The notes under the pieces: model-generated
Told to the model about the DNA's origin: nothing
The model's database searches: none
What the model saw: only the letters and a program-made list of their open reading frames with translations
Shown: positions 5,926-29,896 of the stretch, in pieces
Layout: every line of letters begins with the position of its first letter
Numbering within the stretch: position 1 is the first letter of the stretch
Translations under genes and position numbers: made by a program
From: Candidatus Methylomirabilis limnetica
GTDB taxonomy: Bacteria; Methylomirabilota; Methylomirabilia; Methylomirabilales; Methylomirabilaceae
Assembly: GCF_003044035.1 (NCBI RefSeq)
Contig: NZ_NVQC01000020.1
Coordinates: 1 to 32,000, forward strand
Reading direction: 5' to 3'
Length of the DNA stretch: 32,000 bases

Positions 5926-5954
5926 GGGCGCTGCTTGCTGCGCCCGGTGCAAGG

Positions 5955-6007
5955 TGCAAAACCCCCCTCAACCCCCCTTTGCAAAAGGGGGGGACGGGGG
6001 ATTTGGT
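5955..6007 (+). repeat. REP family A (palindrome CCCCCCTTTGCAAAAGGGGGG)
   Basis: The near-perfect palindrome core lies at 5972..5993. An inverted second copy is at 12330..12374, and both read as the PPFAKGG pseudo-peptide in the ORF track. Confidence 0.7.
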
Positions 6008-6018
6008 ACGATGTGTGG

Positions 6019-6303
6019 GGTGCGTTCGGCGTACCGCGTCCATTGCGTGCAACGTAACGCAACAAACGCAATCGACACAAATGAACTACCCCGCGGCAAG
6101 CTACGGGGTATCGTATTCTGTTCTGGCCCGTCATTCCGTGCTTGACGAGCCTGCCCCGTACTGGATACGTGGGAATCCAGTCGGGCCCTCTGGATACCGG
6201 CTTCCGCCGGTATGACGAACTCGCGGCAAGCCGCGGGGTATCAACCCTCAAGGGAATGAACGCAACAAACGCAATAACGCGATAGACGCAAGGGACGCAA
6301 CTG
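6019..6303 (+). repeat. repeat family D ('AACGCAA' heptad-rich element), split by the family B insertion
   Basis: The segments 6019..6078 (TGCGTTCGGCGTACCGCGTCCATTGCGTGCAACGTAACGCAACAAACGCAAT...) and 6262..6303 resemble 25607..25690. AACGCAACAAACGCAAT occurs on both sides of the inserted element. Confidence 0.55.
6079..6261 (-). mobile_element. MITE-like element, family B, copy 1 (~183 bp)
   Basis: By eye it is roughly 90% identical to the reverse complement of 17540..17714. It contains the hairpin ATACCGGC-TTCC-GCCGGTAT, and both ends carry AATGAAC. It has no coding capacity. Confidence 0.7.
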
Positions 6304-10389: not shown

Positions 10390-11127
10390 CTAGAGGATCC
10401 CGGCGATCGATTTTGCCAGACCTTCCGTCAAGGAAGGCAACGCCTCTTCCAGCTTCAGGTTCACCTGATTGGCCGTTGAGGCGATCCGTGTCTGATATCG
10501 TTTCCTTTCTGCAGTAGTCCGGCTGGTCTGTCTAATGGCAGAGCCGCTCCCCTGCTGGAGATTAGACTGTACCGTTTGCTCGACCGCCTCCTTGGACCTT
10601 TCTGAGATCATAAGGTCGGTGACGATGGTGTAGGTGACATCTTTCACCATAGAGCCCGCGATCATCTCGGCCCCGGCGAACACCAAGCCGCCGATGCCAG
10701 CGCCGTATAGCGCGCCTGAGCCACCACCCGCGGCTCCGCCGATCAGGGCGCCGCCCATGGCGCCTGCTAATGTGCCGCCGTACCCAGCAGCAACCGCTGC
10801 TCTCAACGCCGAGGGATCGGCCTGTCCCACATAGAGGACATTGCCCTGCAGAATATAGAAGGCCTCCTTCGGATTCGTGGTGACCTTGTAGCCGTTCGCC
10901 TGCAGCCTGCTGATGACAAGGGGCTTGATGTCAAACTCCTTGTCTGAGGTGTTCTTGATATCGATAAAGACCGTTCGTTCCGCCTGATTCTCGATATCCA
11001 GGAAGATGGTGTCGGACATCCTGGTTTCTACCTTGAGATCTTTCTTTTCCAGGGCAACCTGCATCGCCGAGCAACTGGCCAGTAGAACGGCAATCAGGAC
11101 CAAACCGGCGCACTTCAGCATCTTCAT
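10390..11127 (-). CDS. traT: TraT-family outer-membrane lipoprotein (complement resistance / surface exclusion family)
   Basis: GGAGGTG RBS precedes ATG 11127, and the lipobox is LLASC. The protein is collinear with F-plasmid TraT as I remember it (ERTVFIDIKNTSDK, VKDVTYTIVTDLMISER, KRYQTRIASTANQVNLKLEEA...LAKSIAGIL). Confidence 0.85.
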   Translation of the reverse strand: MKMLKCAGLVLIAVLLASCSAMQVALEKKDLKVETRMSDTIFLDIENQAERTVFIDIKNTSDKEFDIKPLVISRLQANGYKVTTNPKEAFYILQGNVLYVGQADPSALRAAVAAGYGGTLAGAMGGALIGGAAGGGSGALYGAGIGGLVFAGAEMIAGSMVKDVTYTIVTDLMISERSKEAVEQTVQSNLQQGSGSAIRQTSRTTAERKRYQTRIASTANQVNLKLEEALPSLTEGLAKSIAGIL

Positions 11128-11200
11128 CGGGCCGTCACCTCCTGTAAAGAACCTGCACGCATGGGAACGACTACGAACGCTCGCAATGACCCCGCGAAGC

Positions 11201-11815
11201 TTACCCCACCTGGCCTGCAACTCGCATCAGATCCTCGGTGGTGTAAATCGACTCTAGGCCATACCCACTTTTCTGCAACTCTTCGCGGCCGCCCTCCTGG
11301 CGATCAACAAGGGCCAGTACTTTGGCGATCGCAAAGCCTGCATGCAGCGCGCCTTCAATCGCTTTGAGGGTCGAGGCGCCGGTGGTGACGACATCCTCAA
11401 TGATCACAACCCTCGCACCTGGCTGCTCGAATCCTTCCACCCATTTCTGGGCTCCATGCCCTTTCGGTTCCTTTCTGACACTGAAGGCCTGAATTGGTTC
11501 ACCTGCGAGGGCGCTGTGATAGGCGATGGCGTACGCAATCGGGTCTGCGCCAAGCGTGAGTCCCCCGACGGCGGTGATCTGCTTCCCACCTGTTTGTTCA
11601 ATAGCCTTGATCTGCTCGAAGAAGAGCTGGCCGAGAAGCGGCATCGCCTCCGATAGGAATGTCGTCTTCTTGCAGTTGATGTAGTAGCGGCTCTTTCGGC
11701 CGGAGGCCAAGGTGAAGACGGGCTCGGCGCTGTGCTGGAAGGAGTGCTGAACCAGCAATCTCAGGAGCTTGTCCCAGCATGCTTTAAGCGGGGATTGGTC
11801 TCTTGGGGTATCCAC
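11201..11815 (-). CDS. pyrE: orotate phosphoribosyltransferase
   Basis: The sequence includes FTLASGRKSRYYINCK and the PRPP-binding loop ARVVIIEDVVTTGAST. Confidence 0.9.
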   Translation of the reverse strand: MDTPRDQSPLKACWDKLLRLLVQHSFQHSAEPVFTLASGRKSRYYINCKKTTFLSEAMPLLGQLFFEQIKAIEQTGGKQITAVGGLTLGADPIAYAIAYHSALAGEPIQAFSVRKEPKGHGAQKWVEGFEQPGARVVIIEDVVTTGASTLKAIEGALHAGFAIAKVLALVDRQEGGREELQKSGYGLESIYTTEDLMRVAGQVG

Positions 11816-17850: not shown

Positions 17851-17934
17851 ATGTGCTTCGCGGTTGAGCAACGATAGATCGTTTTGAACGGCAACGTAAA
17901 CCGGTAAGGTTGGAAGGGAGAAGGAGGAATGTCT

Positions 17935-18429
17935 ATGCGAGAGATCATGGTTGGCGAGTCATTGGTAGGTGATGGCAACGAGGTAGCACACGTCGATCTG
18001 ATGATCGGCCCCAAGAACGGCCCAGTCGGACACGCCTTTGCACAGTGCCTCGCTCGGCAGTCTGCGGGCCACAACGCCCTCTTGGCGGTCCTGGCGCCGA
18101 ATGTCCCAGCGAAGCCTTCGACGGTAATGTTCAACAAGGTGACGATTAAGGGGGCGACCCAGGCGGTTCAGATGTTCGGTCCAGCCCAGGCGGGTGTGGC
18201 GAAGGCCGTGGTGGATAGCGTTGCTGAAGGCGTGATCTCCGCGAAGGATGCTGAAGACTTGGTTGTCATTGTCGGCGTCTTCATCCATTGGCAGGCGACG
18301 GATAATAAGAAGATCTACGACTACAACTATCAGGCGACCAAAGAATCAATCCAGCGGGCATTGGCAGAGCAGCCCTCGATGACTGACGTACTGGCGCAGA
18401 AGGATAAGGCCAAGCATCCGTTTGCGTAG
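17935..18429 (+). CDS. fae: formaldehyde-activating enzyme
   Basis: The protein is collinear with M. extorquens Fae as I remember it ([53 protein letters not shown]). GGAGG lies 7 nt before ATG 17935. Confidence 0.95.
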
Positions 18430-18554: not shown

Positions 18555-19439
18555 ATGGCGACAGAGCGAAAGCATCTTCTCTATTTTCTAACGACTGATT
18601 CCCACCCTAGTCCTTTCGACATCAATATGGCGTATGACGCAGGTTTCCACGCCGTCATCCCGTATGGTGACGTGACCGAGGAGTTAGCAGTCCTCCTGGT
18701 GCAGGATATTATCTTCTCTCGAGGGCCGAAAGGGGCCAAATTCAGCGCGCTCTTCATCGGGGGTAACGATATGGAGATCGCTGAGCGGGTCCGTCACGCC
18801 GCTGTGAAGAGCATGTTCCCCCCCTTTCAGGTGTCGATGATGATCGATCCCAAGGGGTCCTATACGACGGCCGTGGCACTCGTCGCCAAGGCGGAGAAGG
18901 CGCTAGGTGGGTTGCAGGGCAAGCTGGTGGCGATCCCGGGTGGAACGGGCCCCGTAGGTACGGTTGCCGCCACCCTCTGCGTGAAGCTGGGAGCCGAGGT
19001 GATCATCGGCTCCAGACAATTGAGCGGCGTAGAGCGTCTGGCGCAGCAATTGTCGGCGCGGACCGGTGGCTCCGTAAAGGGCGCTGCGATGGCAACGGAT
19101 GAGGAAAAGATCTCGCATCTGCGAGGTGCTGACGTGATCCTCACGACGGGCAAGGCGGGTATTCAGATGATTTCTGAAGCGGTCCTGAAAGCGCTTCCGC
19201 CGGGTAAGCTTGTGGCCGACGTTAATGCCGTTCCCCCGACTGGTATCTACGATCTGTCGCCGCATGATGACCTGAAGGAGATCGTCCCCGGGATCAAGGG
19301 AATTGGGGCTCTCGCCGTTGGGGTCCTGAAATACGATGTCGAGATAGAAATGCTCGAGACGATCCGGACCTCGGATAAGTGTGTGGTTCTTGACGAGAAT
19401 CAGGCCTTGGAGATTGCTCAGAGGCGTCTTTCCGTATAG
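18555..19439 (+). CDS. mtdB: NAD(P)-dependent methylene-tetrahydromethanopterin dehydrogenase
   Basis: Recalled MtdB motifs are present: SPFDINMAYDAGF, DIIFSR, LFIGG, VADVNAVPPTGI and GIGALAVGVLKY. Confidence 0.88.
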   Translation: MATERKHLLYFLTTDSHPSPFDINMAYDAGFHAVIPYGDVTEELAVLLVQDIIFSRGPKGAKFSALFIGGNDMEIAERVRHAAVKSMFPPFQVSMMIDPKGSYTTAVALVAKAEKALGGLQGKLVAIPGGTGPVGTVAATLCVKLGAEVIIGSRQLSGVERLAQQLSARTGGSVKGAAMATDEEKISHLRGADVILTTGKAGIQMISEAVLKALPPGKLVADVNAVPPTGIYDLSPHDDLKEIVPGIKGIGALAVGVLKYDVEIEMLETIRTSDKCVVLDENQALEIAQRRLSV

Positions 19440-19452
19440 GAGTGAGAATCAG

Positions 19453-19791
19453 GTGTCCGAGACACAGTTTATATTGATCACTGGCCGATCGACCAAGCAG
19501 GGAAGGGCGGTCCATCTTGGCAAACAAGCCCAAGAGTACCGGGACGAGATCTCGACCCTGCAGATTAACCTCAAGGATATTGAAGCCTTAGGGGTGCAGG
19601 ATGGGGGTCAGGTGAAGGTATCATCGAACTACGGTTCGATGGTGGTAAAAGTAAAAAAGTGGGATATTCCGCAAGGGATAATCTTTATCCCCTACGGGGA
19701 AGTGAGCAATGCCCTGATCGGTTCGGATACCCAGGCAACAGGAATGCCGGATTCAAAAGGGATCAAGGTGGAGGTTGAACGCTATGACTGA
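19453..19791 (+). CDS. formylmethanofuran dehydrogenase subunit D-like protein (molybdopterin-dinucleotide-binding barrel domain)
   Basis: The GTG start at 19453 is preceded by AGGAG. The sequence FILITGRSTKQGRAVHLGK...LGVQDGGQVKVSSNYGSMVVKVKK...GIIFIPYG matches my memory of archaeal FwdD/FmdD. It overlaps fhcB by 8 nt. Confidence 0.8.
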   Translation: MSETQFILITGRSTKQGRAVHLGKQAQEYRDEISTLQINLKDIEALGVQDGGQVKVSSNYGSMVVKVKKWDIPQGIIFIPYGEVSNALIGSDTQATGMPDSKGIKVEVERYD

Positions 19792-21124
19792 GAGCGTTGC
19801 CGTAAAAGAACCGTATGTGATGACGGGCGTCGTGTGTCCTTATTGCGGCGTGACGTGTGACGATCTTGAGGTTCGGGTTGAGAATGGGAAGATCACGGAG
19901 GTTAAAAACGCCTGCGTCCTGGGTAAGGACACCTTTCTCCATCACCTGGAGGGATTGTCGACCCCGAGGCTGTATGGCAAACCGGCGACGATTGATGAGT
20001 GTATCGATGCGGCGGCAGAGATTCTTGCGAAGGCCAAGTATCCACTTATCTATGGACTAGACTCGACTGAGCTGGGCGCGCAGCGGGCATCGATCGAGCT
20101 GGCCGATCTGATCGGCGCGAATATCGATCACACCTCTTCTGTCTGCCACGCGCCGAGCTATCAGGCGGTAATGACGGTCGGCATCCCGACATGCACGTCG
20201 GGAGAGACGAAGAACCGAGCCGATCTGGTGATCTTTTGGGGATGTAATCCTGCTGAGGCCCACCCCAGGCACGCTACTCGTTATTCGGTGACCCCAAAGG
20301 GAATGTTCACCCCCAAGGGGAAGAAGGACCGGATGGTCATTCAAGTCGACGTCAGGCCAACGCCGACCACGCGAATAGCCGATGCCTTTATCCAAATGAA
20401 ACCGAACTCTGATTATGAGGTCATCTCTGCCCTCAGGGCTCTCCTGAAGGGCCACGAACTGGAACAGGCCGAGATCGGAGGAATAGCGGTCGATGAACTG
20501 AAAGCTCTTGTAGAAAAGATGAAGAGCTGTAAGTTCGGGATCGTCTATTGGGGGATGGGCCTGACCCAGACCAGAGGAAAATATCTAAATCTCGTTGCGC
20601 TGCTCAAGCTTGCTCAAGATCTCAACGAGTTTACAAAGTTTTCGTGTGCGGCGATGAGGGGCCATGGCAATGTGGTGGGCATGGCTCAGGTGTTGACATG
20701 GCAAACGGGCTATCCCTTTCACGTGAATATGAGCCGTGGGTATCCTCGATTCAACCCTGGGGAATTCTCGGTGGTAGATCTGTTGGCCCGTAAAGAGGTC
20801 GATGCCGCGCTGATTATTGCTGGTGACGCCATCGGGAACTTTCCAGGGAGCCTGGCAGAGCATCTGCGATCGATTCCGTTGATTGCCATTGATCCCAAAG
20901 AGAGCGATACGACCAAAGTAGCCGACATCGTGATTCCGTCAGCGCAGGGTGCAATTGGTGCCGGGGGGATGGCGTACAGGATGGACCATATCCCCCTGAT
21001 GTTCAAAAAGGTAGTTGAGTCACCCTACCCATCGGATCGGGAGATCATCGACCGCATCATCGCGAAGGTGAAGGCGATGAAGAGCCGCGGCAATGGCGCT
21101 CCCGCCCCGGCCGGTAGAGGCTGA
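19784..21124 (+). CDS. fhcB: formylmethanofuran dehydrogenase subunit B homologue (FhcB/FwdB)
   Basis: GGAGG lies 9 nt before ATG 19784. It is a MopB-family protein with the N-terminal motif CPYCGVTCDD...NAC, SSVCHAPS at Cys121-His122 and AAMRGHGNVVG at Arg292. Confidence 0.9.
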   Translation: MTESVAVKEPYVMTGVVCPYCGVTCDDLEVRVENGKITEVKNACVLGKDTFLHHLEGLSTPRLYGKPATIDECIDAAAEILAKAKYPLIYGLDSTELGAQRASIELADLIGANIDHTSSVCHAPSYQAVMTVGIPTCTSGETKNRADLVIFWGCNPAEAHPRHATRYSVTPKGMFTPKGKKDRMVIQVDVRPTPTTRIADAFIQMKPNSDYEVISALRALLKGHELEQAEIGGIAVDELKALVEKMKSCKFGIVYWGMGLTQTRGKYLNLVALLKLAQDLNEFTKFSCAAMRGHGNVVGMAQVLTWQTGYPFHVNMSRGYPRFNPGEFSVVDLLARKEVDAALIIAGDAIGNFPGSLAEHLRSIPLIAIDPKESDTTKVADIVIPSAQGAIGAGGMAYRMDHIPLMFKKVVESPYPSDREIIDRIIAKVKAMKSRGNGAPAPAGRG

Positions 21125-21135
21125 GGATAATCGAC

Positions 21136-22776
21136 ATGGGACGTTCGTTAAGAATCACCGGTGGTGAAGTCTATGATCCGGCCAACGGGATCAACGGGGA
21201 GATCAAGGAGATCTGTGTTGAGGATGGAAAGATCGTGCGGTCCTGCACCGGGCCCGCTGAGGTCATTGATGCCGCCAACCTGGTCGTGATGCCTGGTGGT
21301 GTCGATATTCATACCCATGTTGGCAGTCCGGCGGTCAACGCGGCCCGCGGGTTCAGGCCAGAGGACCACCGGCATATGCATTTCAGCGCGAAACCCGGTA
21401 TGAGATCCGGCGTTGGTTCAACTGTCCCTTCCACGTTTGCGACTGGCTACCTCTACGCTCAGATGGGCTATACCACAGTGATGGAGGGCGCTAACGCTCC
21501 CATCGGCGTTCGGCACACCCATGAGGAGTTGATTGATATCCCGATCGTGGATAAGGGGCTGTATATCGAATTGGGGAGTAACGAGTTTATTCTGAAGTTC
21601 ATCAAGGCGGGCGAGATCGATAAGGTCAAGCGATATGTGGCCTGGCTCCTCCGTTCACTGAAGGCGTACGGCATCAAGCTGGTGAACCCCGGCGGCGTGG
21701 AGGCGTGGAAGTACGGGAAGGATGTCGAAACTCTGGACGACAAGGTCCACTACTTCGATGTCACGCCGCGCCAAATCCTGAAGACGCTCGCTTCAGTGAA
21801 TGAAAGCCTCGGATTGCCCCATTCGATCCACGTGCATGCCAACCGGCTGGGTACACCCAATAACTACCTGACAACCTTAGAGACGATGCAGACACTCGGG
21901 AACGCCAGGGTCCATATGGCGCACGCCCAGTTTCATAGTTACGGCGGGAAGAACTGGGGTGGCTTTTGCTCAAAGGCGGCTGAGATCGCGGAGTATATCA
22001 ACACCCATCCTAACGTGACGACAGACATCGGCCAGATTGTCTTCGGCGACGCCACCACGATCACGGCGGACGGCCCGTGGCAGTACCGGTTGTACAAGCT
22101 CACCAAAAATAAATGGTACAACCAGGACATAGAGGTAGAGTCGGGGTGTGGGATCGTCCCGTACACATATCGAGAGAATAACTTTGTAAACTCCCTTCAA
22201 TGGGCCATTGGACTGGAGCTCTTCCTCCTGATTCGTGATCCGTGGCGGGTATTCCTCTCCACCGATCATCCAAACGGGGGCCCCTTCTACTTCTATCCCT
22301 GGATTATCAAGCTGCTCATGGACAAATCGTTCCGGGCTGAGATGTTGAAGCGTGTCCATAAGCGTGTGATGCCGGAGACCATCCTGCCGACTCTTGACCG
22401 CGAGTATACCCTTTACGAGATCGCCATCATCTCCAGGGCTGGACCAGCAAGAGCATTGGGGCTGAAGCATAAAGGCCACCTGGGAGTCGGGGCGGATGCC
22501 GATATTACTATCTATTCCAAGGATAGCGATAAGGAACAAATGTTCGAACATCCAGTCTATGTCATTAAGGCCGGCGAGACGGTTCTTCGAGATGGTGAGA
22601 TCGTTCACAGTCCCCATGGAAAGACCATATTTGTTGTCCCGCCTGACGTCGGCGAGATGGACCCAACCTTTAAGACCGAATTCGAAAACTACTACACGAT
22701 TCGGTATCAGAATTTCCCGATCGATATCGAGGACATCCCCAATCGAGAGGCGATTCCTGCGGGAGCTCCTCGATAA
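21136..22776 (+). CDS. fhcA: formylmethanofuran dehydrogenase subunit A homologue (amidohydrolase, FhcA/FwdA)
   Basis: It has the amidohydrolase metal motif PGGVDIHTHV. Its length (546 aa) and its position in the cluster fit FhcA. Confidence 0.92.
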   Translation: MGRSLRITGGEVYDPANGINGEIKEICVEDGKIVRSCTGPAEVIDAANLVVMPGGVDIHTHVGSPAVNAARGFRPEDHRHMHFSAKPGMRSGVGSTVPSTFATGYLYAQMGYTTVMEGANAPIGVRHTHEELIDIPIVDKGLYIELGSNEFILKFIKAGEIDKVKRYVAWLLRSLKAYGIKLVNPGGVEAWKYGKDVETLDDKVHYFDVTPRQILKTLASVNESLGLPHSIHVHANRLGTPNNYLTTLETMQTLGNARVHMAHAQFHSYGGKNWGGFCSKAAEIAEYINTHPNVTTDIGQIVFGDATTITADGPWQYRLYKLTKNKWYNQDIEVESGCGIVPYTYRENNFVNSLQWAIGLELFLLIRDPWRVFLSTDHPNGGPFYFYPWIIKLLMDKSFRAEMLKRVHKRVMPETILPTLDREYTLYEIAIISRAGPARALGLKHKGHLGVGADADITIYSKDSDKEQMFEHPVYVIKAGETVLRDGEIVHSPHGKTIFVVPPDVGEMDPTFKTEFENYYTIRYQNFPIDIEDIPNREAIPAGAPR

Positions 22777-22887: not shown

Positions 22888-23799
22888 ATGGAGATTAACG
22901 GCGTTTGTATCGACGAGACATATGCGGAGGCATTCAACATGTATGCCAGCCGTGTGTTGATTACTGCCTGCAATAAGCAGTGGGCCCTGGTGGCGGCACA
23001 GAACATGGCGGGTTTCGGCACATCGGTCATTGGCTGTGGCTGTGAGGTCGCGATTGAGGGCGTCGAGCCGACGGAGACGCCCGATGATCGCCCTGGCGTG
23101 AGTGTCTTACTATTCGCCCCGTCGAAAAAGGCGGTTCAGGAGCAGCTCATCAATCGAATCGGCCAGTGCGTGATGACCTCTCCCACCTCGGCCTGTTACA
23201 ACGCCCTGGAGGCGGAAGATCGCCTTTCGGTAGGGGGTAAGCTCCAATTTTTTGGAGACGGATTTCAGATCAGTAAGCGGCTCGACTCACGGATGACCGG
23301 AAATGGGAGCAACCCTAGGCGTTTCTGGCGAATTCCCGTGATGGACGGCGAGTTCATAGTCGAAGACCGGTTCGGTGTACAGAAGGGGGTAGCCGGCGGC
23401 AACTTCTTGCTGTTGGGGAGCGATCAGGCTCTGGCCCTGCAGGCTGCAGAGCGGGCGGTCGAGGCGATGCGGAAGATACCGGATGTCATCATGCCGTTCC
23501 CAGGTGGTATCGTAAGGTCTGGCAGTAAGGTTGGCTCGCGCTACAAGTTCCTTAATGCCTCAAGCAATACGGCCTTCTGCCCATCGCTGAGGCGGACGGT
23601 CAAGAGCGAGCTGCCAGAGGGGGTTGAGGCGGTCTTCGAGGTCGTCGTCGATGGCCTGACGCCGGAGGCGGTAGGGGAGGCAATGCGGGTTGGCATCCTG
23701 GCCGCGTGCGGTCCCGGCGTTGTACAGATCACCGCTGGTAACTACGGTGGGAAGTTGGGGAAGCATCACTTTTACCTTCATCAGCTCCTTTCGAGCTGA
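22888..23799 (+). CDS. fhcD: formylmethanofuran:tetrahydromethanopterin formyltransferase (Ftr/FhcD)
   Basis: It has an Ftr-type N-terminus (MEINGVCIDETYAEAFNMYASRVLITA), and its ~300-aa length fits. Confidence 0.92.
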   Translation: MEINGVCIDETYAEAFNMYASRVLITACNKQWALVAAQNMAGFGTSVIGCGCEVAIEGVEPTETPDDRPGVSVLLFAPSKKAVQEQLINRIGQCVMTSPTSACYNALEAEDRLSVGGKLQFFGDGFQISKRLDSRMTGNGSNPRRFWRIPVMDGEFIVEDRFGVQKGVAGGNFLLLGSDQALALQAAERAVEAMRKIPDVIMPFPGGIVRSGSKVGSRYKFLNASSNTAFCPSLRRTVKSELPEGVEAVFEVVVDGLTPEAVGEAMRVGILAACGPGVVQITAGNYGGKLGKHHFYLHQLLSS

Positions 23800-23817: not shown

Positions 23818-24627
23818 ATGCCACCAGTCGTGCTTCGTATGAAAGATGCCCCGACGAGTATTCCGCTTGAGGCCGAGGCGATCTCACCTGACATGTTCGT
23901 AGAGCGGAGTCAGGGGGAGATAGAGGCCCTGCCAGTAGCGTTGGGGAATGAGACCCACCAGCTTGGTGACTTCTTCAGCATTGAGGGAGAGCGATCGGAT
24001 GAGATCGTTATAGAGGGCTCCACGGGCCGGGTTAAGTGGATCGGCTCGGGAATGACGCGGGGTCGGATTGTAGTCCACGGCGACGTCGGGATGCATGCCG
24101 GATCTTACATGCAAGGTGGCGAGATCCTTGTCGAAGGGAATGCGGACGACTTCCTCGGTGTCGAAATGAAAGGCGGGCTGATCCGGGTCAATGGCAATGC
24201 AGGGCATCGTGCCGGGGCCGCCTATAGGGGGAGCAAGTACGGCATGCAGGGCGGGATCATTCTGGTCGATGGAAACGTCGGGCACGAAGTAGGCGCCTAT
24301 ATGCGAAGAGGTCTCATTGTCATCAAGGGGAATGCCGAGGACTTCCTGGGGGCCATGATGGCGACCGGGACAATCTGTCTCTTCGGCCAGGCAGGCATCA
24401 GAACAGGAGGCGGAATGCAGAAAGGGACGATCCTCTGCATGCACCCTGTCGAAATGCTGCCGACCTTCGTCTACGACTGCTCCTACGCGCCGGTCTTTCT
24501 CCGGATTCTGTTCAAGGGGCTCAAGCATCTCGGGGTGGAGTGCCCCGCGGGGGCGAATGGCCTCGTTCGACGCTATCACGGGGACCTGGCCGATGTTGGC
24601 AAGGGCGAAATCCTGATCGCCGCCTGA
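23818..24627 (+). CDS. fhcC: formylmethanofuran dehydrogenase subunit C homologue (GXGXG beta-helix, FhcC/FwdC)
   Basis: It contains repeated G..G...G..M.GG.I.V.GN turns (VHGDVGMHAGSYMQGGEILVEGNADD, VNGNAGHRAGAAY..., VDGNVGHEVGAYMRRGLIVIKGNAED). Confidence 0.9.
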   Translation: MPPVVLRMKDAPTSIPLEAEAISPDMFVERSQGEIEALPVALGNETHQLGDFFSIEGERSDEIVIEGSTGRVKWIGSGMTRGRIVVHGDVGMHAGSYMQGGEILVEGNADDFLGVEMKGGLIRVNGNAGHRAGAAYRGSKYGMQGGIILVDGNVGHEVGAYMRRGLIVIKGNAEDFLGAMMATGTICLFGQAGIRTGGGMQKGTILCMHPVEMLPTFVYDCSYAPVFLRILFKGLKHLGVECPAGANGLVRRYHGDLADVGKGEILIAA

Positions 24628-24640
24628 GGAGGATGCGACC

Positions 24641-25591
24641 TTGTCTCTTAGTCTGAATCGCCGGGCCGGCGAGATACTTGATCGGATAGCGGAGCAGAGT
24701 GCGGCGCTAGGGATCTCGGTTTCGACGCTTACGAATGGCGCCAGGCTTGTCGATTTCGGGGTGAAGGTTCCCGGTGGCCTGCTCGCAGGGAAGGGGCTGT
24801 CTGAGATCTGCCTTGGTGGACTGGGGGAGGTGGCGTTTCTTCCACTGAGCTATGGCGACTTTTCGCTTCTCGGCGTCAGCGTGGCGATCGACGGCCCGGT
24901 GTTACCCTGCCTTGGCTCGCAGTATGCCGGCTGGAAGATCCAGCGTGGGAAGTTCTTTGCGATGGGTTCCGGTCCGGCCAGGGCGATGGCAAGGACCGAG
25001 AAGCTGTTCGAGACGATTCGTATCCAGGATGAGGCCGACTCGGCAGTCCTCGTTCTGGAGAGTGGTCGCCTACCTACCGAAGAGGTGGCCGACTATGTAG
25101 CGGAGAAGTGCGGTATCAAGCCGGATCGGGTCTCCTTGGCGGTCGCTTCCACGCGAAGCATGGCCGGGGCGGTACAGATCGCTGCGCGTTCCGTAGAGAC
25201 CGCGATGCACAAACTTCTGGAGTTGGGATTTGACGTGACTAAGGTGCTGAGCGGCTTCGGGGTCTGCCCCATCGCGACTGCTGCCGCCGATGACCTGACC
25301 GCGATTGGACGGACCAACGACTGTGTCCTGTATGGCAGCGAGGTGTTCCTGACGGTCTCAGCAACCGATGGTGAGATTGAGGCCCTGATCGATAAGATCC
25401 CCTCGTCCTCGTCGCGAGACTACGGACAGTTATTCGGTGAGCTCTTCAAGCGGTATGATGGGGACTTCTATAAGATCGATCCATTCCTCTTCAGCCCGGC
25501 CAAGACTTCCATCACTAACGCCGCCAGTGGCAGAACCTATAGGGCCGGGCGCTTCAATGCCGAGCTGCTCCGGGCCTCCCTCCTCGGATAA
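24641..25591 (+). CDS. mch: methenyl-tetrahydromethanopterin cyclohydrolase
   Basis: The TTG start at 24641 lies 8 nt after GGAGG. The sequence is Mch-like (LNRRAGEILDRI...NGARLVDFGV...GGLLAGKGLSEICLGGLG). Confidence 0.9.
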   Translation: MSLSLNRRAGEILDRIAEQSAALGISVSTLTNGARLVDFGVKVPGGLLAGKGLSEICLGGLGEVAFLPLSYGDFSLLGVSVAIDGPVLPCLGSQYAGWKIQRGKFFAMGSGPARAMARTEKLFETIRIQDEADSAVLVLESGRLPTEEVADYVAEKCGIKPDRVSLAVASTRSMAGAVQIAARSVETAMHKLLELGFDVTKVLSGFGVCPIATAAADDLTAIGRTNDCVLYGSEVFLTVSATDGEIEALIDKIPSSSSRDYGQLFGELFKRYDGDFYKIDPFLFSPAKTSITNAASGRTYRAGRFNAELLRASLLG

Positions 25592-25690: not shown

Positions 25691-26560
25691 ATGAAGATCG
25701 GGATCCTGGCCGATAGAAGAGGATGGCACGTCGAGGCCCTCGCGAAAGCGCTGGCGCAACGCGGCTGCCAGGCCGACTTTATGCCGATTACACGGCTGGT
25801 GGCCCGTGCTCCAGGTAATCCTCTTATCACGATCAATGGTCAACCCCTCGAATCCTACGATGCGCTACTGATCCGGACGATCCCGGAAGGATCGCTGGAG
25901 CAGATCATCTTCAGGATGGATGCCCTGCACCGACTGGAGGCGGCGGAGGTTCGAGTTATGAATCGGCCAGCTTCCCTTGAACGGACGGTTGACAAATACT
26001 ATACGTCTAGCCTTCTCGCATCGAGCGGCCTGCCGACTCCGAGGACCGTAGTAGCTGAGGGGTTCGACGAGGCGATGGAGGCGTTCCGCGAATTCGGTGA
26101 TGTGGTGGTGAAGCCGCTCTTTGGCGCCGGTGGGAGGGGGATAGCGCGGATCAGCGACGCCGATGTCGCTTACCGAACCTTCCGTGTCCTCGCCATGACT
26201 CGGAGCATCTTCTACATCCAGGAATTTGTTCCACACGGCGATTACGATCTCAGGGGTCTGGTGATAGGGGGTCGGGTGGTCGCAGCCATGCGCCGGTGGT
26301 CGGAGGGCTGGCGGCATAATGTCTCTCAGGGCGCGCGGCCGGAGCCTCACGCCATGGACGAAGAAGCGACCGGTCTCTGCCTCGAGGCCAGTCGACTGCT
26401 TGAGACCGATTATGCTGGGATCGATCTGCTGAGGACTCCTCACGGCTATACAGTAGTAGAAGTCAATAGCATCCCAGGCTGGTCCGGCCTGCAGCGAACC
26501 ACGGAGATCGACATCGCTCAGGAGATCGCAGACCACCTGCTGAGTCAGCTTGGACACTGA
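25691..26560 (+). CDS. RimK-type ATP-grasp ligase (H4MPT/methanofuran glutamate-ligase class, MptN/MfnD-like)
   Basis: It shows ATP-grasp motifs (VVVKPLFGAGGRGI, FYIQEFV, AGIDLL...VVEVNSIPGW) and sits in the cofactor gene neighbourhood. Confidence 0.85.
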   Translation: MKIGILADRRGWHVEALAKALAQRGCQADFMPITRLVARAPGNPLITINGQPLESYDALLIRTIPEGSLEQIIFRMDALHRLEAAEVRVMNRPASLERTVDKYYTSSLLASSGLPTPRTVVAEGFDEAMEAFREFGDVVVKPLFGAGGRGIARISDADVAYRTFRVLAMTRSIFYIQEFVPHGDYDLRGLVIGGRVVAAMRRWSEGWRHNVSQGARPEPHAMDEEATGLCLEASRLLETDYAGIDLLRTPHGYTVVEVNSIPGWSGLQRTTEIDIAQEIADHLLSQLGH

Positions 26561-26619
26561 ACAGCACAGGGGGTGCGTAGGGGCGCCCCTTGTGGGTGCC
26601 CTCTCATGTGAGGTGCACA

Positions 26620-27498
26620 GTGCGACTGAATCCCCTATCCTCTGATACTGTCTCCCTCGCCGCACAGCTCGCATGCCTCCTGGAGGTGAGCGCTAACAAG
26701 CCTGGTAACGTCACCCCGTTCGCCGACTTCGCCGATACCTGCTACACCGACTTTCTGGCCAGCTCCGTCATCCTGGGGCGAGCCCTGCGGAAGACTGCAA
26801 CGGTCGCCACCGGTTCGCTGGTCCTCGATGCGGTTCGAGAAACCAAGCGGCTGGTCGGCCGGAACACCAACCTTGGGATCGCGCTCCTCTTCGCTCCACT
26901 GGCAAAGGCGGCCCTGCGTAAAGGACGCCGCCCGCTTCGGTCACGCCTTCGTAGCGTACTGACCTCCCTGACGCCCTACGATGGGCAAAGGGTCTATGAG
27001 GCGATTCGGCTTGCCCAGCCCGGAGGGCTTGGGGACGCTAACCAGTTCGATGTCCGGGCGACCCGTGGCAGAGTGCCGCTTCTCGGTGCGATGCGCTTGG
27101 CGATGGATCGGGACTCGATTGCGCGTGAGTATGCCACCGACTTCGAGATCACCTTCACGATCGGTGCTCCGACCCTCGAGCGGTCTCTCCAGGAGTCGAA
27201 CGATTCGGGAAGCTCGGTCATTCAGACCTACCTGACGCTTCTCTCTCGGGTTCCGGATTCTCTTGTTGAGCGCAAATGTGGCGCGCGCGAGGCTGGCAGA
27301 ATCTCACGGGAAGCGGGAAAGATTCTGGCCATCGGTGGGGCGTTTTCGGAGCAAGGCAAGCGAAGGCTGGCTCGGTTAGACCACACTCTCCGGCAGAATG
27401 GGAACCGGCTGAATCCGGGGACTACCGCGGATCTCACCGCCTCAGCCCTTTTTGTTGTGATGTTAGAGAGAGGGATCGAGTTCGTGCTGGGAAAGTGA
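26620..27498 (+). CDS. triphosphoribosyl-dephospho-CoA synthase (CitG/MdcB) family protein
   Basis: LEVSANKPGNVTP...NTNLGIALLFAPLA resembles the CitG family. The start is uncertain: GTG 26620 follows GAGGTG, and the track start is TTG 26590. Confidence 0.75.
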   Translation: MRLNPLSSDTVSLAAQLACLLEVSANKPGNVTPFADFADTCYTDFLASSVILGRALRKTATVATGSLVLDAVRETKRLVGRNTNLGIALLFAPLAKAALRKGRRPLRSRLRSVLTSLTPYDGQRVYEAIRLAQPGGLGDANQFDVRATRGRVPLLGAMRLAMDRDSIAREYATDFEITFTIGAPTLERSLQESNDSGSSVIQTYLTLLSRVPDSLVERKCGAREAGRISREAGKILAIGGAFSEQGKRRLARLDHTLRQNGNRLNPGTTADLTASALFVVMLERGIEFVLGK

Positions 27499-27554: not shown

Positions 27555-28505
27555 CTAAGCGACTTGGAGGCGGCCCTGGCTAACGGACTGGAGCGCAAAA
27601 AATTCAATCAGGTGGTCGGCAACGGCTTTTTTCTGCTTATCCACCGTGATCACGTGGTAGCAGTCATCGAGTAAGATCAGGAGCTTCTGTATCGAAGCAA
27701 TGTCATTGTACACCAGCTCGCCATTACGAGGACCGGTGATGTCGTCTTCGCGGGCCTGGAGGATCAAGGTGGGCGCCGTCACCTCACCCAAGCGACTACG
27801 GACGAGCGTGGAGAGCCGGTCTATATTGGTCAAGGTCTTCAACGGAAAGATCGGATACCCCATCGTGGCTGCCAAAGGGGCACTGATCGCTTGGTCAGCA
27901 GTATGGTTCATGCGAGTCCACAAACCCATGATCCATCGACGCAGGAGCGAAACGGAACCATACGACGCCCGCTTGTGGGCCTGAAGCCGTCTCTCCTTAA
28001 TTCCAAAGGGTGGACCATCCTGGTGGAAGAGGAGATAGCCCAAAGGAGCCACCTTCATAACAAAGGGCAAGAGTGCCCTGGTCCAAGGTGTCTTCCACCC
28101 ATCATAGAAAAAGGTGGGCGAGAAGACTCCGATTCCATCAACATTCACGGTCAGTGAGGAGTCCAAGGCCAGGAGTCCTCCCGCGCTCAGGCCGGCCACA
28201 TAGAGGTGGTCGTACCGTTCACGTGCGAAGGCCAGTTGCATCTTCACGTGCGTGAGCCAGTCCTCCTCGGACGTTCTCACAAGATCCCTGAGCCGCGTGC
28301 AGTGGCCCGGGAGAGTCGTGGCATAGACGTCCCATCCATGGCGCGCCAACCGCCGTCCAAGGTAGCCCATCTCGGTCGGTGTCCCTGTGACGCCGTGAAT
28401 CAGATACACCAAGGTGCGTGAGTCGGTGTGGAAGGCAAGGTCGGTCGGCTGACGGCCGACCATCTCATCAAGAGGACCAGGCCGCGTGGTCAGTTGTCGG
28501 CTCAT
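27555..28505 (-). CDS. alpha/beta-hydrolase fold protein (esterase/lipase-like)
   Basis: It has the motif LIHGVTGTP and the nucleophile elbow GLSAG. ATG 28505 forms an ATGA overlap with the aminotransferase stop, and the longer track start at 28586 lies inside that gene. Confidence 0.85.
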   Translation of the reverse strand: MSRQLTTRPGPLDEMVGRQPTDLAFHTDSRTLVYLIHGVTGTPTEMGYLGRRLARHGWDVYATTLPGHCTRLRDLVRTSEEDWLTHVKMQLAFARERYDHLYVAGLSAGGLLALDSSLTVNVDGIGVFSPTFFYDGWKTPWTRALLPFVMKVAPLGYLLFHQDGPPFGIKERRLQAHKRASYGSVSLLRRWIMGLWTRMNHTADQAISAPLAATMGYPIFPLKTLTNIDRLSTLVRSRLGEVTAPTLILQAREDDITGPRNGELVYNDIASIQKLLILLDDCYHVITVDKQKKAVADHLIEFFALQSVSQGRLQVA

Positions 28506-29896
28506 GGCTTCTCTGTGCAGTGGGTGAACAGCCAGTCCAGTAGTTCTATGGCCAGATCGATCTCGCCTTTGGTGATATCCAGGCAAGGTGCAAGGCCGAA
28601 GACGTTCTTGTAGTGTCCCACGACGTTTAACACTAGCCCCATGGGGCCACGGGATGTTGGAATTCCCCCGGCCAGACCCAACTCGAAGATCCGGTCTGCG
28701 AGGGCCCTGTTGGGGGTGATCCGGTCCGCCTGCGTCACTTCAATACGAAGAGCTAAGCCCAAGCCGGCGACGTCCCCGATAGCGGTATGTCGTTTCTTGA
28801 GGTCTTCGAGCTGCCCCAGAAAATAGGCTCCCGATTCGGCCACCTTCCGCTCATAATTCTGCTGCTCGATCCACTGCAGTGTTGCCAAGGCTGCGGCCGT
28901 GCCCAGTGGATTGGACGAGAATGTGGAATGTGACGACCCCGCCGGAAAGGCCTGGGGAGAGATGAGGGGTTCCTCAGCCCATAGCCCAGAGAGGGGATTC
29001 AGGCCATTAGTCAATGTCTTTCCAAAGACGACGATGTTCGGCTTGACGCCGAAGTGCTCGATCCCCCAAAACTTCCCGGTTCTGAAAAATCCCATCTGGA
29101 CCTCGTCGTCCACCAGGAGAATCTTCCGCTCATCCAGAATCTTCTTGAGCCGCAGGAAATACTCGGGGGGCGGCACAATATATCCTCCAACGCCCTGCAC
29201 CGGCTCCACATAGAACGCGACAAACTCAGGCTCCTCAGCCTTAGCATCCCAGAATGAGTTGTACTCCGTCTCGAACAGCCGCTCGAACTGTTTGACGCAG
29301 TAATAGTCGCAGCTCTCCAGTTTCATGTCGTATGGGCATCGATAGCAGTACGGGAAGGGCACAAAATGTGCTCGGTTCGAGAAATGGCCGAAGCGTCGGC
29401 GGTATCGGTAGCTGGAGGTGATCTCGGAAGCTCCGAGGGTCCTGCCGTGGTACCCCCCCGTAAAGGCCATGAAGAGGGATTTGCCGGTAGCAATACGCAC
29501 GAGTTTAATCGAGTCTTCAATGGCCTGGGAGCCCCCCACGTTGAACTGCACGCGCCCTTTGATTCCGAAGGCTCGGAGGCACTCGATCGCCAATTTCTCG
29601 GCTGTCAGGACCTTTTCTTCATGGAGATACTGGCCGGCCAATTGTGGCAATTGCTCGAGCTGCGCTATCACCGCCTCTACGATGCGCTGGTTACGATAGC
29701 CGAAGTTGACCGTCGAGTACCACATCTGGAGGTCGAGGTATGGCTTGTCCTCGCGGTCGTAGAGAAAGCTTCCTTCACAGCCTTGAAAGAACTTCGGCTT
29801 GGGAGAGTAGTGCGCCGTATCGCCATGCGAGCAGTACTGCGCTTCCTTTTCGCGGAGTACTGCTTCGCTGAGTGGGATCTTATCTATGCGATTCAT
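28502..29896 (-). CDS. class-III PLP-dependent aminotransferase
   Basis: Motifs include GGSQAIEDSIKLVR, GGYHGRTLGA, LLVDDEVQMGFFRTGKFW and VVFGKTLTNG (PLP lysine). An ATGA overlap links it to the upstream HAD gene. Confidence 0.9.
   Translation of the reverse strand: MNRIDKIPLSEAVLREKEAQYCSHGDTAHYSPKPKFFQGCEGSFLYDREDKPYLDLQMWYSTVNFGYRNQRIVEAVIAQLEQLPQLAGQYLHEEKVLTAEKLAIECLRAFGIKGRVQFNVGGSQAIEDSIKLVRIATGKSLFMAFTGGYHGRTLGASEITSSYRYRRRFGHFSNRAHFVPFPYCYRCPYDMKLESCDYYCVKQFERLFETEYNSFWDAKAEEPEFVAFYVEPVQGVGGYIVPPPEYFLRLKKILDERKILLVDDEVQMGFFRTGKFWGIEHFGVKPNIVVFGKTLTNGLNPLSGLWAEEPLISPQAFPAGSSHSTFSSNPLGTAAALATLQWIEQQNYERKVAESGAYFLGQLEDLKKRHTAIGDVAGLGLALRIEVTQADRITPNRALADRIFELGLAGGIPTSRGPMGLVLNVVGHYKNVFGLAPCLDITKGEIDLAIELLDWLFTHCTEKP

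What the first reader, a model, noticed from the sequence alone, without database searches (positions are those of the whole stretch)
19453..21124. The 'Fhc' cluster carries an FwdD subunit and an FhcB with intact pterin-enzyme active-site signatures: possibly a true formylmethanofuran dehydrogenase
Seen in sequence: a 113-aa FwdD-like gene overlaps by 8 nt an FwdB homologue. That homologue has an N-terminal CxxCxxxC...C motif (CPYCGVTCDD...NAC), a Cys-His pair in SSVCHAPS (Cys121-His122, TGC codon) and an Arg in AAMRGHGNVVG (Arg292). Established knowledge: in the formate-dehydrogenase-like module of archaeal Fwd/Fmd, FwdB plus FwdD bind the W/Mo bis-pterin. From memory, the M. wolfeii structure has a metal-ligating Cys118, His119 and Arg288, and the generic motif is ..V(C/U)HGPS.. 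/ ..RG..NVQG... Also from memory, the M. extorquens formyltransferase/hydrolase complex is FhcABCD only, contains no Mo/W and releases formate. Inference: this organism may oxidise the formyl group directly to CO2 through a pterin cofactor, or run the reaction reversibly, rather than hydrolysing it. That would change the electron and formate balance assigned to its C1 pathway.
Basis: partly seen in the sequence, partly recalled or inferred. Interest (0 to 1): 0.7.

Follow-up and report, generated by a model that had tools for sequence, protein, structure and literature searches.

The report
Bacterial formylmethanofuran dehydrogenase with built-in formyltransferase
This methane-oxidising NC10 (Methylomirabilis-type) bacterium carries an archaeal-style formylmethanofuran dehydrogenase with every sequence signature of an active Mo/W-pterin site, so it probably burns the formyl group to CO2 instead of releasing formate; this had already been suggested for its close relatives and has never been tested biochemically.

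Summary
A 112-aa FwdD gene (19453-19791) overlaps by 8 nt a 446-aa FwdB gene (19784-21124). Cys121, His122 and Arg292 of that FwdB, and its four N-terminal cysteines, align exactly with Cys118, His119, Arg288 and the [4Fe-4S] cysteines of M. wolfeii FwdB.

FwdB is 44-50% identical to structurally solved archaeal FwdB but only about 24% identical to hydrolase-type FhcB. Three hydrolase-type FhcB proteins (M. extorquens, Azospirillum, Thiodictyon) lack Cys, His and Arg. The Azospirillum and Thiodictyon clusters, read here, also have no fwdD.

The operon fae-mtdB-fwdD-B-A-ftr-fwdC-mch is conserved in NC10. The fwdD-fwdB(Cys/Sec) pair occurs in at least 10 bacterial phyla, and two relatives encode selenocysteine at the ligand position.

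The C subunit matches M. extorquens FhcC through its Ftr-docking C-terminus. The likely enzyme is thus a hybrid of Ftr and FwdABCD.

Open points are the missing electron-transfer subunit, the metal and the activity.

Novelty is low. Earlier work noted fwdD in NC10 (2016) and called the M. oxyfera orthologues (Damo_0456-60) a "formyl/formate oxidation system" (2018). The same operon with Cys118 was described in Actinobacteria (2020).

The parts
17929..18429 (+). fae, formaldehyde-activating enzyme. It is the first gene of the H4MPT oxidation cluster.
   Evidence: Pfam PF08714, E=1e-71. It holds the same position in related NC10 contigs.
18555..19439 (+). mtdB-like NAD(P)-dependent methylene-H4MPT dehydrogenase.
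   Evidence: Pfam PF09176 Mpt_N, E=1.5e-29.
19453..19791 (+). fwdD, 112 aa with a GTG start. It corresponds to 'domain IV' of formate dehydrogenases, the beta-barrel that caps the bis-pterin cofactor.
   Evidence: PF01568, E=1.4e-15. PDB FwdD chains 2ki8, 9sfi_S, 8rja_D and 5t5i_D, E=5e-22 to 4e-17. NCBIfam NF042908 FwdD, E=4.8e-28. An AGGAG lies 10 nt upstream.
19784..21124 (+). fwdB (annotated fhcB in some records), 446 aa. It is the Mo/W-bis-pterin catalytic subunit and its start overlaps fwdD by 8 nt.
   Evidence: PDB FwdB hits at E=2e-130 and 4e-124, against 2e-15 for M. extorquens FhcB. TIGR03129 scores 542 bits against a cut-off of 327.8. The AF2 model has TM 0.80-0.81 to 8rja_B/5t5i_B and 0.61 to 6s6y_B. 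There are only 1-4-residue indels relative to M. wolfeii FwdB.
19835..19915 (+). N-terminal [4Fe-4S] motif C18-x2-C21-x3-C25...C44.
   Evidence: These residues align with M. wolfeii Cys9/12/16/35. They are conserved in 118-119 of 120 homologues; the exceptions are gaps.
20144..20149 (+). Cys121 (TGC) and His122, the predicted metal ligand and catalytic histidine.
   Evidence: They align with Cys118/His119 of 5t5i_B. The codon was read. The pair is conserved in 119/120 metagenomic homologues and in all 80 species-representative loci, two of which have TGA (Sec) at the Cys position.
20657..20659 (+). Arg292 within the MRGHGNV motif, the predicted substrate-orienting arginine.
   Evidence: It aligns with Arg288 of 5t5i_B and is conserved in 119/120 homologues. 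It is replaced by G or A in proteobacterial FhcB, and the M. extorquens stretch (LADPFQG) has no Arg.
21136..22776 (+). fwdA (fhcA), the amidohydrolase that cleaves or forms formyl-methanofuran.
   Evidence: PF07969, E=4e-62. TIGR03121 scores 750 bits against a cut-off of 393. PDB FwdA hits score 494-531 bits, against 351 bits for M. extorquens FhcA. An HxH motif lies at residues 59-61.
22888..23799 (+). ftr (fhcD), formylmethanofuran:H4MPT formyltransferase. It is encoded between fwdA and fwdC, as in fhcBADC operons.
   Evidence: PF01913 and PF02741. PDB hits 1ftr_A at 7e-94 and 6s6y_D at 3e-90.
23818..24627 (+). fwdC (fhcC), a beta-helix subunit whose C-terminus resembles that of FhcC.
   Evidence: PF01493. 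Residues 33-268 align with M. extorquens FhcC 27-263, whereas archaeal FwdC alignments stop at query residues 207-234. The AF2 model (pLDDT 93) fits 6s6y_C best, with TM 0.90/0.92 and rmsd 2.1.
24641..25591 (+). mch, methenyl-H4MPT cyclohydrolase.
   Evidence: PF02289, E=3e-121.
25691..27498 (+). A RimK-type ATP-grasp gene (25691-26560) and a CitG-like gene (26590-27498). They are conserved neighbours and are probably involved in H4MPT or methanofuran cofactor biosynthesis (inference).
   Evidence: PF08443 and PF01874. The same pair follows mch in NC10 and Acidobacteriota contigs.

Best explanation
The genes fwdD-fwdB-fwdA-ftr-fwdC encode one complex that completes the H4MPT-linked oxidation of formaldehyde. 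The proposed sequence of steps is as follows.

1. Ftr moves the formyl group from H4MPT to methanofuran.
2. FwdA hydrolyses formyl-methanofuran.
3. The formate is passed internally to the FwdB/FwdD module, by analogy with the tunnel seen in the M. wolfeii structure.
4. A Mo- or W-bis-pterin centre oxidises it to CO2. The metal is ligated by Cys121, with His122 and Arg292 assisting.
5. Two electrons leave through the N-terminal [4Fe-4S] cluster to a partner that is not encoded in the operon, most likely a soluble ferredoxin.

Shown here: the homology, the intact residues, the FwdD partner, the operon and their conservation. Inferred: cofactor occupancy, formate channelling, docking of Ftr on the FhcC-like C-terminus of FwdC, and the electron acceptor.

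The complex is best seen as a hybrid between archaeal Fwd and the proteobacterial formyltransferase/hydrolase (Fhc). It keeps the dehydrogenase that M. extorquens-type Fhc has lost.
For: - **Active site.** The residues align residue for residue with M. wolfeii FwdB.
- **Invariant columns.** The window keeps 121 of the 172 columns that are invariant in three solved archaeal FwdB proteins. Hydrolase-type FhcB keeps 63-65.
- **No extra loops.** There are no inserted loops relative to FwdB. M. extorquens FhcB, by contrast, has three loops that clash with the pterin (PMC6926001).
- **FwdD.** It is present and translationally coupled to fwdB.
- **Purifying selection.** Cys, His and Arg are kept in 119/120 homologues down to 53% identity. 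They are also kept in all 80 species-representative loci from about 10 bacterial phyla, 74 of which have fwdD next to fwdB.
- **Selenocysteine.** Two bacterial relatives have an in-frame TGA at the ligand position, which makes little sense for a mere scaffold.
- **Curated model.** The FwdB equivalog model is passed, and FhcB fails it.
- **Fold.** The fold match favours FwdB over FhcB.
- **Ferredoxin in relatives.** In 11 proteobacterial MAG loci a 7Fe-type ferredoxin gene follows fwdC directly.
- **Literature.** The M. oxyfera orthologues Damo_0456-60 are described as the highest-transcribed of three "formyl/formate oxidation systems" (PMC6094997).
Against: - No FwdF/FwdG polyferredoxin or any CxxCxxCxxxC ferredoxin ORF lies in the 32-kb window. 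The gene tables of five related contigs show none either. The electron outlet is therefore unknown.
- NC10 genomes also encode NAD(P)-linked formate dehydrogenases, which would fit release of free formate.
- The Azospirillum and Thiodictyon FhcB proteins keep the four Fe-S cysteines without an active site. Conserved cofactor motifs can therefore outlive catalysis.
- The AF2 model has low confidence exactly at the active-site loops, residues 118-134 and 293-327. No pocket geometry could be checked.
- There are no metal or activity data.
Confidence: 0.7

Rival explanations
1. It is a formyltransferase/hydrolase (Fhc) in the M. extorquens sense. FwdB/FwdD would serve only as a scaffold. Formate would be released and then oxidised by the separate NAD(P)-dependent formate dehydrogenases.
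For: The gene order B-A-ftr-C and the FhcC-like C-terminus are Fhc features. There is no electron-transfer subunit in the operon. Additional Fdh systems exist in all four NC10 genomes compared in PMC6094997. Many papers annotate the step as Fhc.
Against: Every feature that Hemmann et al. used to explain loss of dehydrogenase activity is reversed here. Those features are Cys118 replaced by Ser, loss of His119 and Arg288, loss of the Fe-S domain, absence of FwdD and clashing loops. The residues are conserved over a wide divergence range, and relatives carry Sec variants. The window protein passes the FwdB equivalog cut-off that true FhcB fails.
Confidence: 0.12
2. The enzyme is catalytically intact but the module works mainly as a formate dehydrogenase or CO2 reductase exchanging free formate. 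Alternatively it runs in the reductive direction, fixing CO2 into formyl-methanofuran, rather than as a tightly channelled formyl-to-CO2 oxidase.
For: Archaeal Fwd is reversible (PMC11656701). Homologous operons occur in anaerobes with Wood-Ljungdahl genes, such as Hakubella and Desulfosporosinus. XoxF and the H4F route can also supply free formate in NC10.
Against: The cluster sits between fae/mtdB and mch, which are the genes of the oxidative formaldehyde route. It is highly transcribed in a methane oxidiser. No formate transporter or formate-handling gene lies nearby. Channelling itself was not testable here.
Confidence: 0.13

Closest known systems
Tungsten formylmethanofuran dehydrogenase FwdABCDFG of Methanothermobacter wolfeii (PDB 5T5I) and the Fmd of Ca. 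Ethanoperedens (PDB 8RJA)
   Same: The A, B, C and D subunits are all present. FwdB is 45.5% identical to 5t5i_B and 50.1% to 8rja_B. It has identical [4Fe-4S] cysteines, Cys118, His119 and Arg288, and almost no indels. FwdD is a separate small subunit. FwdA is of the archaeal type at 527-531 bits.
   Different: The window has no FwdF/FwdG polyferredoxin and no F420-reductase module. ftr is encoded inside the operon. The C-terminus of the C subunit resembles FhcC rather than FwdC. The host is a bacterium running the pathway oxidatively, with fae and mtdB.
Formyltransferase/hydrolase complex FhcABCD of Methylorubrum extorquens (PDB 6S6Y)
   Same: Both belong to an H4MPT-linked formaldehyde-oxidation pathway in a methylotroph. 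The gene order B-A-ftr(D)-C is the same. The C subunit is alignable to its end, including the region that docks FhcD.
   Different: M. extorquens FhcB has no Fe-S domain, Cys118 is replaced by Ser, His119 and Arg288 are absent, it has no FwdD, and it has loops that clash with the pterin. It contains no dehydrogenase activity and releases formate (PMC6926001). The window FwdB matches it only at E=2e-15, about 22% identity and TM 0.61.
Damo_0456-60 of Ca. Methylomirabilis oxyfera and its orthologues in M. lanthanidiphila, M. limnetica and CSP1-5
   Same: This is the orthologous five-gene set within the same H4MPT cluster of the same phylum. NC10 FwdB homologues are 74-94% identical to the window protein, with the same neighbours. 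It has been described as a highly transcribed "formate/formyl oxidation system" (PMC6094997).
   Different: Nothing substantive differs. The window comes from a different Methylomirabilota genome: the closest species-representative locus is 94% identical, and identical DNA is found only on metagenome contigs.
The fwdDBA-ftr-fwdC operon of Ca. Hakubella thermalkaliphila (Actinomycetota)
   Same: The operon order is the same. FwdB has the N-terminal [4Fe-4S] domain and Cys118, and there is no fwdE/F/G (PMC7325909). Its FwdB is 55% identical to the window protein (L019).
   Different: The host is an anaerobe with Wood-Ljungdahl genes and no recognised H4MPT biosynthesis genes. Its cluster lacks fae, mtdB and mch.

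Membership tests
Fwd/Fmd formylmethanofuran dehydrogenase (Mo/W-bis-pterin type) | FwdB has the metal-ligating Cys or Sec (M. wolfeii Cys118) together with His119 and Arg288. | tested here: met
   Window Cys121, His122 and Arg292 align to these positions. The Cys codon is TGC.
Fwd/Fmd formylmethanofuran dehydrogenase (Mo/W-bis-pterin type) | FwdB has an N-terminal domain with four cysteines for a [4Fe-4S] cluster. | tested here: met
   C18, C21, C25 and C44 align with Cys9/12/16/35. This feature alone does not discriminate, because the Azospirillum and Thiodictyon FhcB proteins keep it.
Fwd/Fmd formylmethanofuran dehydrogenase (Mo/W-bis-pterin type) | A separate FwdD subunit (formate dehydrogenase domain IV) caps the pterin. 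| tested here: met
   The ORF at 19453-19791 matches PF01568 at E=1.4e-15, PDB FwdD chains at E down to 5e-22 and NF042908 at E=4.8e-28.
Fwd/Fmd formylmethanofuran dehydrogenase (Mo/W-bis-pterin type) | The curated equivalog models for subunits B, A and C are passed. | tested here: met
   TIGR03129 scores 542 bits (cut-off 327.8), TIGR03121 scores 750 (392.75) and TIGR03122 scores 270 (130.65).
Fwd/Fmd formylmethanofuran dehydrogenase (Mo/W-bis-pterin type) | A dedicated electron-transfer subunit (FwdF/FwdG polyferredoxin or equivalent) is encoded with the enzyme. | tested here: not met
   No CxxCxxCxxxC ORF exists in any frame of the window. The gene tables of related NC10 and Acidobacteriota contigs show none. 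This feature is not universal in the family: fwdDBAC and fwdABCD sets without F/G are reported in archaea (PMC7325909).
Fwd/Fmd formylmethanofuran dehydrogenase (Mo/W-bis-pterin type) | The enzyme contains Mo or W bis-MGD and oxidises formyl-methanofuran to CO2. | not testable with these tools
   This needs metal analysis and enzyme assays on the purified complex.
Fhc formyltransferase/hydrolase complex (M. extorquens type) | FhcB is degenerate: it has no catalytic Cys, His or Arg and no pterin site. | tested here: not met
   The window protein has all three residues. M. extorquens, Azospirillum and Thiodictyon FhcB have none (PMC6926001).
Fhc formyltransferase/hydrolase complex (M. extorquens type) | FwdD is absent. 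| tested here: not met
   fwdD is present and overlaps fwdB. It is absent from the two proteobacterial fhc clusters read here.
Fhc formyltransferase/hydrolase complex (M. extorquens type) | The formyltransferase gene lies inside the operon between A and C. | tested here: met
   ftr lies at 22888-23799, between fwdA and fwdC.
Fhc formyltransferase/hydrolase complex (M. extorquens type) | The C-terminal region of FhcC docks FhcD. | tested here: inconclusive
   The sequence aligns with FhcC to residue 268 but with archaeal FwdC only to residues 207-234. The model fits 6s6y_C slightly better (TM 0.90, rmsd 2.1) than archaeal FwdC (TM 0.81-0.89). The model shows one helix at 226-237, not a clear helix-loop-helix. 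No complex was modelled.
Fhc formyltransferase/hydrolase complex (M. extorquens type) | Formate is released as the product, and methylofuran is bound as a prosthetic group. | not testable with these tools
   This needs biochemistry.

The most novel reading that the evidence does not exclude
The NC10 enzyme would be a self-contained five-subunit Ftr-FwdABCD machine. It would carry a C1 unit from formyl-H4MPT all the way to CO2 without releasing formate. It would hand low-potential electrons directly to a soluble ferredoxin, with no polyferredoxin subunit. This dehydrogenase-competent form, and not the M. extorquens hydrolase, would be the common state of the 'Fhc' cluster across bacteria, including Planctomycetota and many Gammaproteobacteria MAGs.
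Probability: 0.4. Interest if true: 0.6.

Novelty: already known. Interest (0 to 1): 0.35.

Why it matters
If the enzyme is active, the last steps of methane-carbon oxidation in nitrite-dependent methanotrophs differ from what is usually drawn. They would yield CO2 and two low-potential electrons (E0' about -530 mV for the formyl-MFR/CO2 couple, PMC11656701). The usual scheme has free formate followed by NAD(P)H. That difference changes the energy and redox balance.

The survey made here suggests the same holds for many bacteria whose clusters are routinely labelled 'Fhc'. The complex would also be a living intermediate between the archaeal CO2-fixing Fwd and the bacterial formate-producing Fhc. 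That makes the evolutionary path proposed by Hemmann et al. testable.

The core idea is already in the literature for this lineage. The value here is confirmation and breadth, not discovery.

Tried and rejected
- **Exact look-up.** A look-up of FwdB with the upstream TTG start found nothing. The ATG start is the one used in public gene calls.
- **Electron partner.** I searched the window in six frames for ferredoxin-type CxxCxxCxxxC motifs and found none. I also ran tblastn with the ferredoxin that follows fwdC in proteobacterial MAGs and found nothing below E=0.5.
- **Cofactor genes.** Pfam scans of the rest of the window found no moa/moe/mob, mod/tup or polyferredoxin genes.
- **Pterin-contact residues.** These could not be scored individually. 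No coordinates are available through the tools, and the AF2 model has low confidence in the active-site loops. As a substitute I counted columns invariant in three solved FwdB proteins.
- **Papers not held.** Adam et al. 2019 (Nat Microbiol) and Reimann et al. 2015 are not in the library. What they say about NC10 Fwd is known only through citing papers.
- **FwdC fold comparison.** It favours FhcC only marginally, so I do not treat Ftr docking as shown.
- **Tree.** The NJ tree of FwdB/FhcB is rough. I use it only to say that degenerate FhcB proteins form a separate long-branch group.
- **Flavin-reductase gene.** I considered the gene at 1924-2556 as an electron partner. I rejected it for lack of any linkage beyond loose synteny.
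Full report
**1. What is in the sequence**

The + strand between 17.9 and 27.5 kb carries one tightly packed cluster:

| Gene | Coordinates |
|---|---|
| fae | 17929-18429 |
| mtdB-like | 18555-19439 |
| fwdD | 19453-19791 |
| fwdB | 19784-21124 |
| fwdA | 21136-22776 |
| ftr | 22888-23799 |
| fwdC | 23818-24627 |
| mch | 24641-25591 |
| RimK-type ATP-grasp | 25691-26560 |
| CitG-like | 26590-27498 |

fwdD starts with GTG ten bases after an AGGAG. It ends with TGA at 19789-19791, and the fwdB ATG lies at 19784, so the 8-nt overlap is real. FwdD is 112 aa, not 113. Public gene calls on identical metagenome DNA give the same 112-aa and 446-aa products. The quoted motifs are present, and Cys121 is encoded by TGC at 20144-20146.

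**2. Source organism**

The best FwdB matches, at 91-94% identity, come from Methylomirabilota/NC10 MAGs. A cluster named "fhcB [candidate division NC10 bacterium]" is 81% identical. The whole arrangement, including flanking genes, recurs in NC10 assemblies GCA_028864815 and GCA_001443495. The window is therefore the orthologue of the H4MPT cluster of Ca. Methylomirabilis.

**3.

*Do Cys, His and Arg superpose on the Fwd active site?* Yes.
- phmmer pairs svCHaps with svCHgps, and mRGHgNV with mRGHyNV, in 8rja_B and 5t5i_B.
- In a MAFFT alignment the window residues fall on M. wolfeii Cys118, His119 and Arg288. The four N-terminal cysteines fall on Cys9/12/16/35.
- These are the residue numbers that Hemmann et al. 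give for the catalytic residues (PMC6926001).

*Do hydrolase-type FhcB proteins carry the same residues and an FwdD partner?* No.
- I fetched two proteobacterial fhc clusters from plasmids, Azospirillum oryzae (L001) and Thiodictyon (L002).
- I reconstructed M. extorquens FhcB from the PDB alignment.
- At the three positions they have S/L/G and A/L/A. M. extorquens has ...PVSGPSVY... and ...LADPFQG....
- Neither cluster has an annotated fwdD, and tblastn with the window FwdD finds none.

*Quantitative comparison.*

| Measure | Versus archaeal FwdB | Versus hydrolase-type FhcB |
|---|---|---|
| Identity of window FwdB | 43.6-50.1% | 24-26% |
| Invariant archaeal columns kept (of 172) | window keeps 121 | FhcB keeps 63-65 |
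| Indels relative to M. wolfeii FwdB | 1-4 residues only | not applicable |
| NCBIfam TIGR03129 (cut-off 327.8 bits) | window scores 542 | FhcB scores 228 and 261 |
| TM-score of AF2 model (pLDDT 75.8) | 0.80-0.81 | 0.61 to M. extorquens FhcB |

With so few indels, there is no room for the three pterin-clashing loops described for FhcB. FwdA is also of the archaeal type, at 494-531 bits to archaeal FwdA chains against 351 bits to FhcA.

The Azospirillum and Thiodictyon FhcB proteins retain it while lacking the active site.

**4. Evidence for functional constraint**

- Among 120 metagenomic homologues at 53-94% identity, 119 keep Cys, His and Arg.
- A scan of species-representative genomes with FwdB-specific peptide patterns found at least 595 matches. 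The best 80 comprise 75 bacterial loci and 5 archaeal loci.
- The bacterial loci include 34 from Planctomycetota, 13 from Gammaproteobacteria and 7 from Methylomirabilota. Chloroflexota, Acidobacteriota, Bacillota, Actinomycetota, Nitrospinota, Gemmatimonadota and others make up the rest.
- All 80 keep the four Fe-S cysteines, His and Arg. Seventy-eight have Cys at the ligand position. Two, Desulfosporosinus lacus and a Nitrospinota MAG, have an in-frame TGA there, which is very probably selenocysteine.
- fwdD lies next to fwdB in 74 of the 80. Five of the six exceptions have less than 700 nt of sequence upstream of fwdB; three of those have only 15-35 nt.

Maintaining a Cys or Sec ligand and a separate capping subunit across this depth argues strongly that the module is catalytic in this family.

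**5. The Fhc-like side of the complex**

- ftr lies between fwdA and fwdC, as in fhcBADC. This order recurs in NC10, Acidobacteriota, proteobacterial MAGs, Hakubella and even a Bathyarchaeota MAG.
- FwdC aligns with M. extorquens FhcC over residues 33-268. That span includes the C-terminal stretch which, in the Fhc structure, forms the platform for FhcD. Alignments to archaeal FwdC stop at residues 207-234.
- Its nearest non-NC10 relatives are full-length Anaerolineae and Gemmataceae proteins.
- A confident AF2 model (pLDDT 93) superposes best on 6s6y_C, with TM 0.90/0.92 and rmsd 2.1 Å. The margin over archaeal FwdC (TM 0.81-0.89) is small.

I therefore regard docking of Ftr as plausible but not shown.

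**6. Mechanism proposed**

The route is formaldehyde, then Fae, MtdB and Mch, giving formyl-H4MPT. Ftr transfers the formyl group to methanofuran. FwdA hydrolyses it at its binuclear metal site. Formate then moves to the FwdB/FwdD Mo/W-pterin centre and is oxidised to CO2. Electrons leave through the [4Fe-4S] cluster.

Homology, residues, subunit set and conservation are shown. Cofactor loading, the tunnel, Ftr docking and the acceptor are inferred.

The acceptor is the main gap. There is no polyferredoxin or ferredoxin ORF in the window, and none appears in the gene tables of five related contigs. In 11 proteobacterial MAG loci a roughly 105-aa 7Fe-type ferredoxin (Fer4 plus DUF3470) follows fwdC directly. 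This points to ferredoxin as the partner in relatives.

bis-MGD supply is plausible, because Methylomirabilis genomes encode Nar, Nap and Fdh enzymes (PMC6094997).

**7. Rivals**

A scaffold-only hydrolase (confidence about 0.12) is supported by two facts. The operon has no electron-transfer subunit, and NC10 genomes contain extra NAD(P)-dependent formate dehydrogenases. It is contradicted by everything in sections 3 and 4.

A catalytically active module that exchanges free formate, or that runs reductively (about 0.13), cannot be excluded. Channelling and direction are not readable from sequence. The flanking fae, mtdB and mch genes and the high transcription in a methanotroph favour oxidation.

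**8. Comparison with the literature and novelty**

- Versantvoort et al. (2018, PMC6094997) describe Damo_0456-60 as the first and most highly transcribed of three "formyl/formate oxidation systems" of M. oxyfera. They report it conserved in M. lanthanidiphila, M. limnetica and CSP1-5, and cite Reimann et al. 2015.
- Merino et al. (2020, PMC7325909) describe a fwdDBA-ftr-fwdC operon whose FwdB has an N-terminal [4Fe-4S] domain and Cys118, without fwdFG, in Actinobacteria.
- Wells et al. (2023, PMC10100899) count 149 bacterial FwdB-family sequences.

No biochemical test has been published in the library searched. Many genome papers still draw the step as Fhc followed by Fdh.

- a residue-level confirmation;
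- the demonstration that true FhcB proteins fail the same tests;
- the breadth of the fwdD-fwdB(Cys/Sec) pair, which includes Planctomycetota and Proteobacteria, contrary to the 2016 statement;
- the Sec variants;
- the linked ferredoxin in proteobacterial MAGs;
- the FhcC-like C-terminus.

**9. Verdict**

Novelty is low and interest is moderate to low (0.35). The main remaining value is as a well-defined target for metal analysis, enzyme assays and structure determination.

Noticed in passing
L001:3635-4987 (Azospirillum oryzae plasmid) and L002:3287-4585 (Ca. Thiodictyon plasmid): These hydrolase-type proteobacterial FhcB proteins are 450 and 432 aa. They keep all four N-terminal [4Fe-4S] cysteines although the Cys118, His119 and Arg288 equivalents are lost. 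M. extorquens FhcB, by contrast, lost the whole domain. An Fe-S cluster may therefore persist in a non-catalytic scaffold.
   Followed up: partly
L062:6001-7266 (Desulfosporosinus lacus DSM 15449) and L058:2512-3810 (Nitrospinota MAG): Both bacterial FwdB genes have an in-frame TGA exactly at the Cys118 ligand position (...SSY*HGP..., ...SSV*HSP...). This is a probable selenocysteine. SECIS elements were not searched.
   Followed up: partly
L041:10840-11154, with equivalents in L036, L043, L057, L060, L061, L067, L069, L073, L083 and L087: A roughly 105-aa 7Fe-type ferredoxin gene (Fer4 plus DUF3470) lies directly downstream of fwdC in Gamma- and Alphaproteobacteria MAG clusters. It is a candidate dedicated electron acceptor. 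The window has no homologue.
   Followed up: partly
L020-L092 (genome-contig scan): fwdD together with an fwdB that has intact Cys, His and Arg occurs in 30 or more Planctomycetota MAGs. It also occurs in 13 or more Gammaproteobacteria MAGs, including USCg_Taylor (L054). This contradicts the 2016 statement that fwdD is absent from Planctomycetes and Proteobacteria.
   Followed up: partly
L080 (Bathyarchaeota MAG) and L023 (Hadesarchaea MAG): The order fwdD-B-A-ftr(-fwdC) also occurs in non-methanogenic archaea. Linkage of ftr to the fwd genes is therefore not a bacterial invention.
   Followed up: no
window 25691-27498 (+), and 28502-29896 (-): The RimK-type ATP-grasp and CitG-like genes follow mch here and in NC10 and Acidobacteriota contigs. 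A class-III aminotransferase also lies near the cluster here, and in L008 it sits beside a pyridoxal-dependent decarboxylase. These are probably methanofuran or H4MPT biosynthesis genes.
   Followed up: no
window 3363-9450 (+): An operon of the CusCBA/RND type: an outer-membrane factor (3363-4670), a membrane-fusion protein (4645-5925) and an AcrB-family pump (6304-9450). It is unrelated to the finding.
   Followed up: no
window 10390-11220 (-): An ORF with a full-length match to the enterobacterial TraT complement-resistance family (PF05818, E=1e-72). This is an unusual find in an NC10-type genome.
   Followed up: no
L007:9356-9814: In one JGI metagenome contig a DUF1097 gene is inserted between fwdB and fwdA of an otherwise identical operon.
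   Followed up: no
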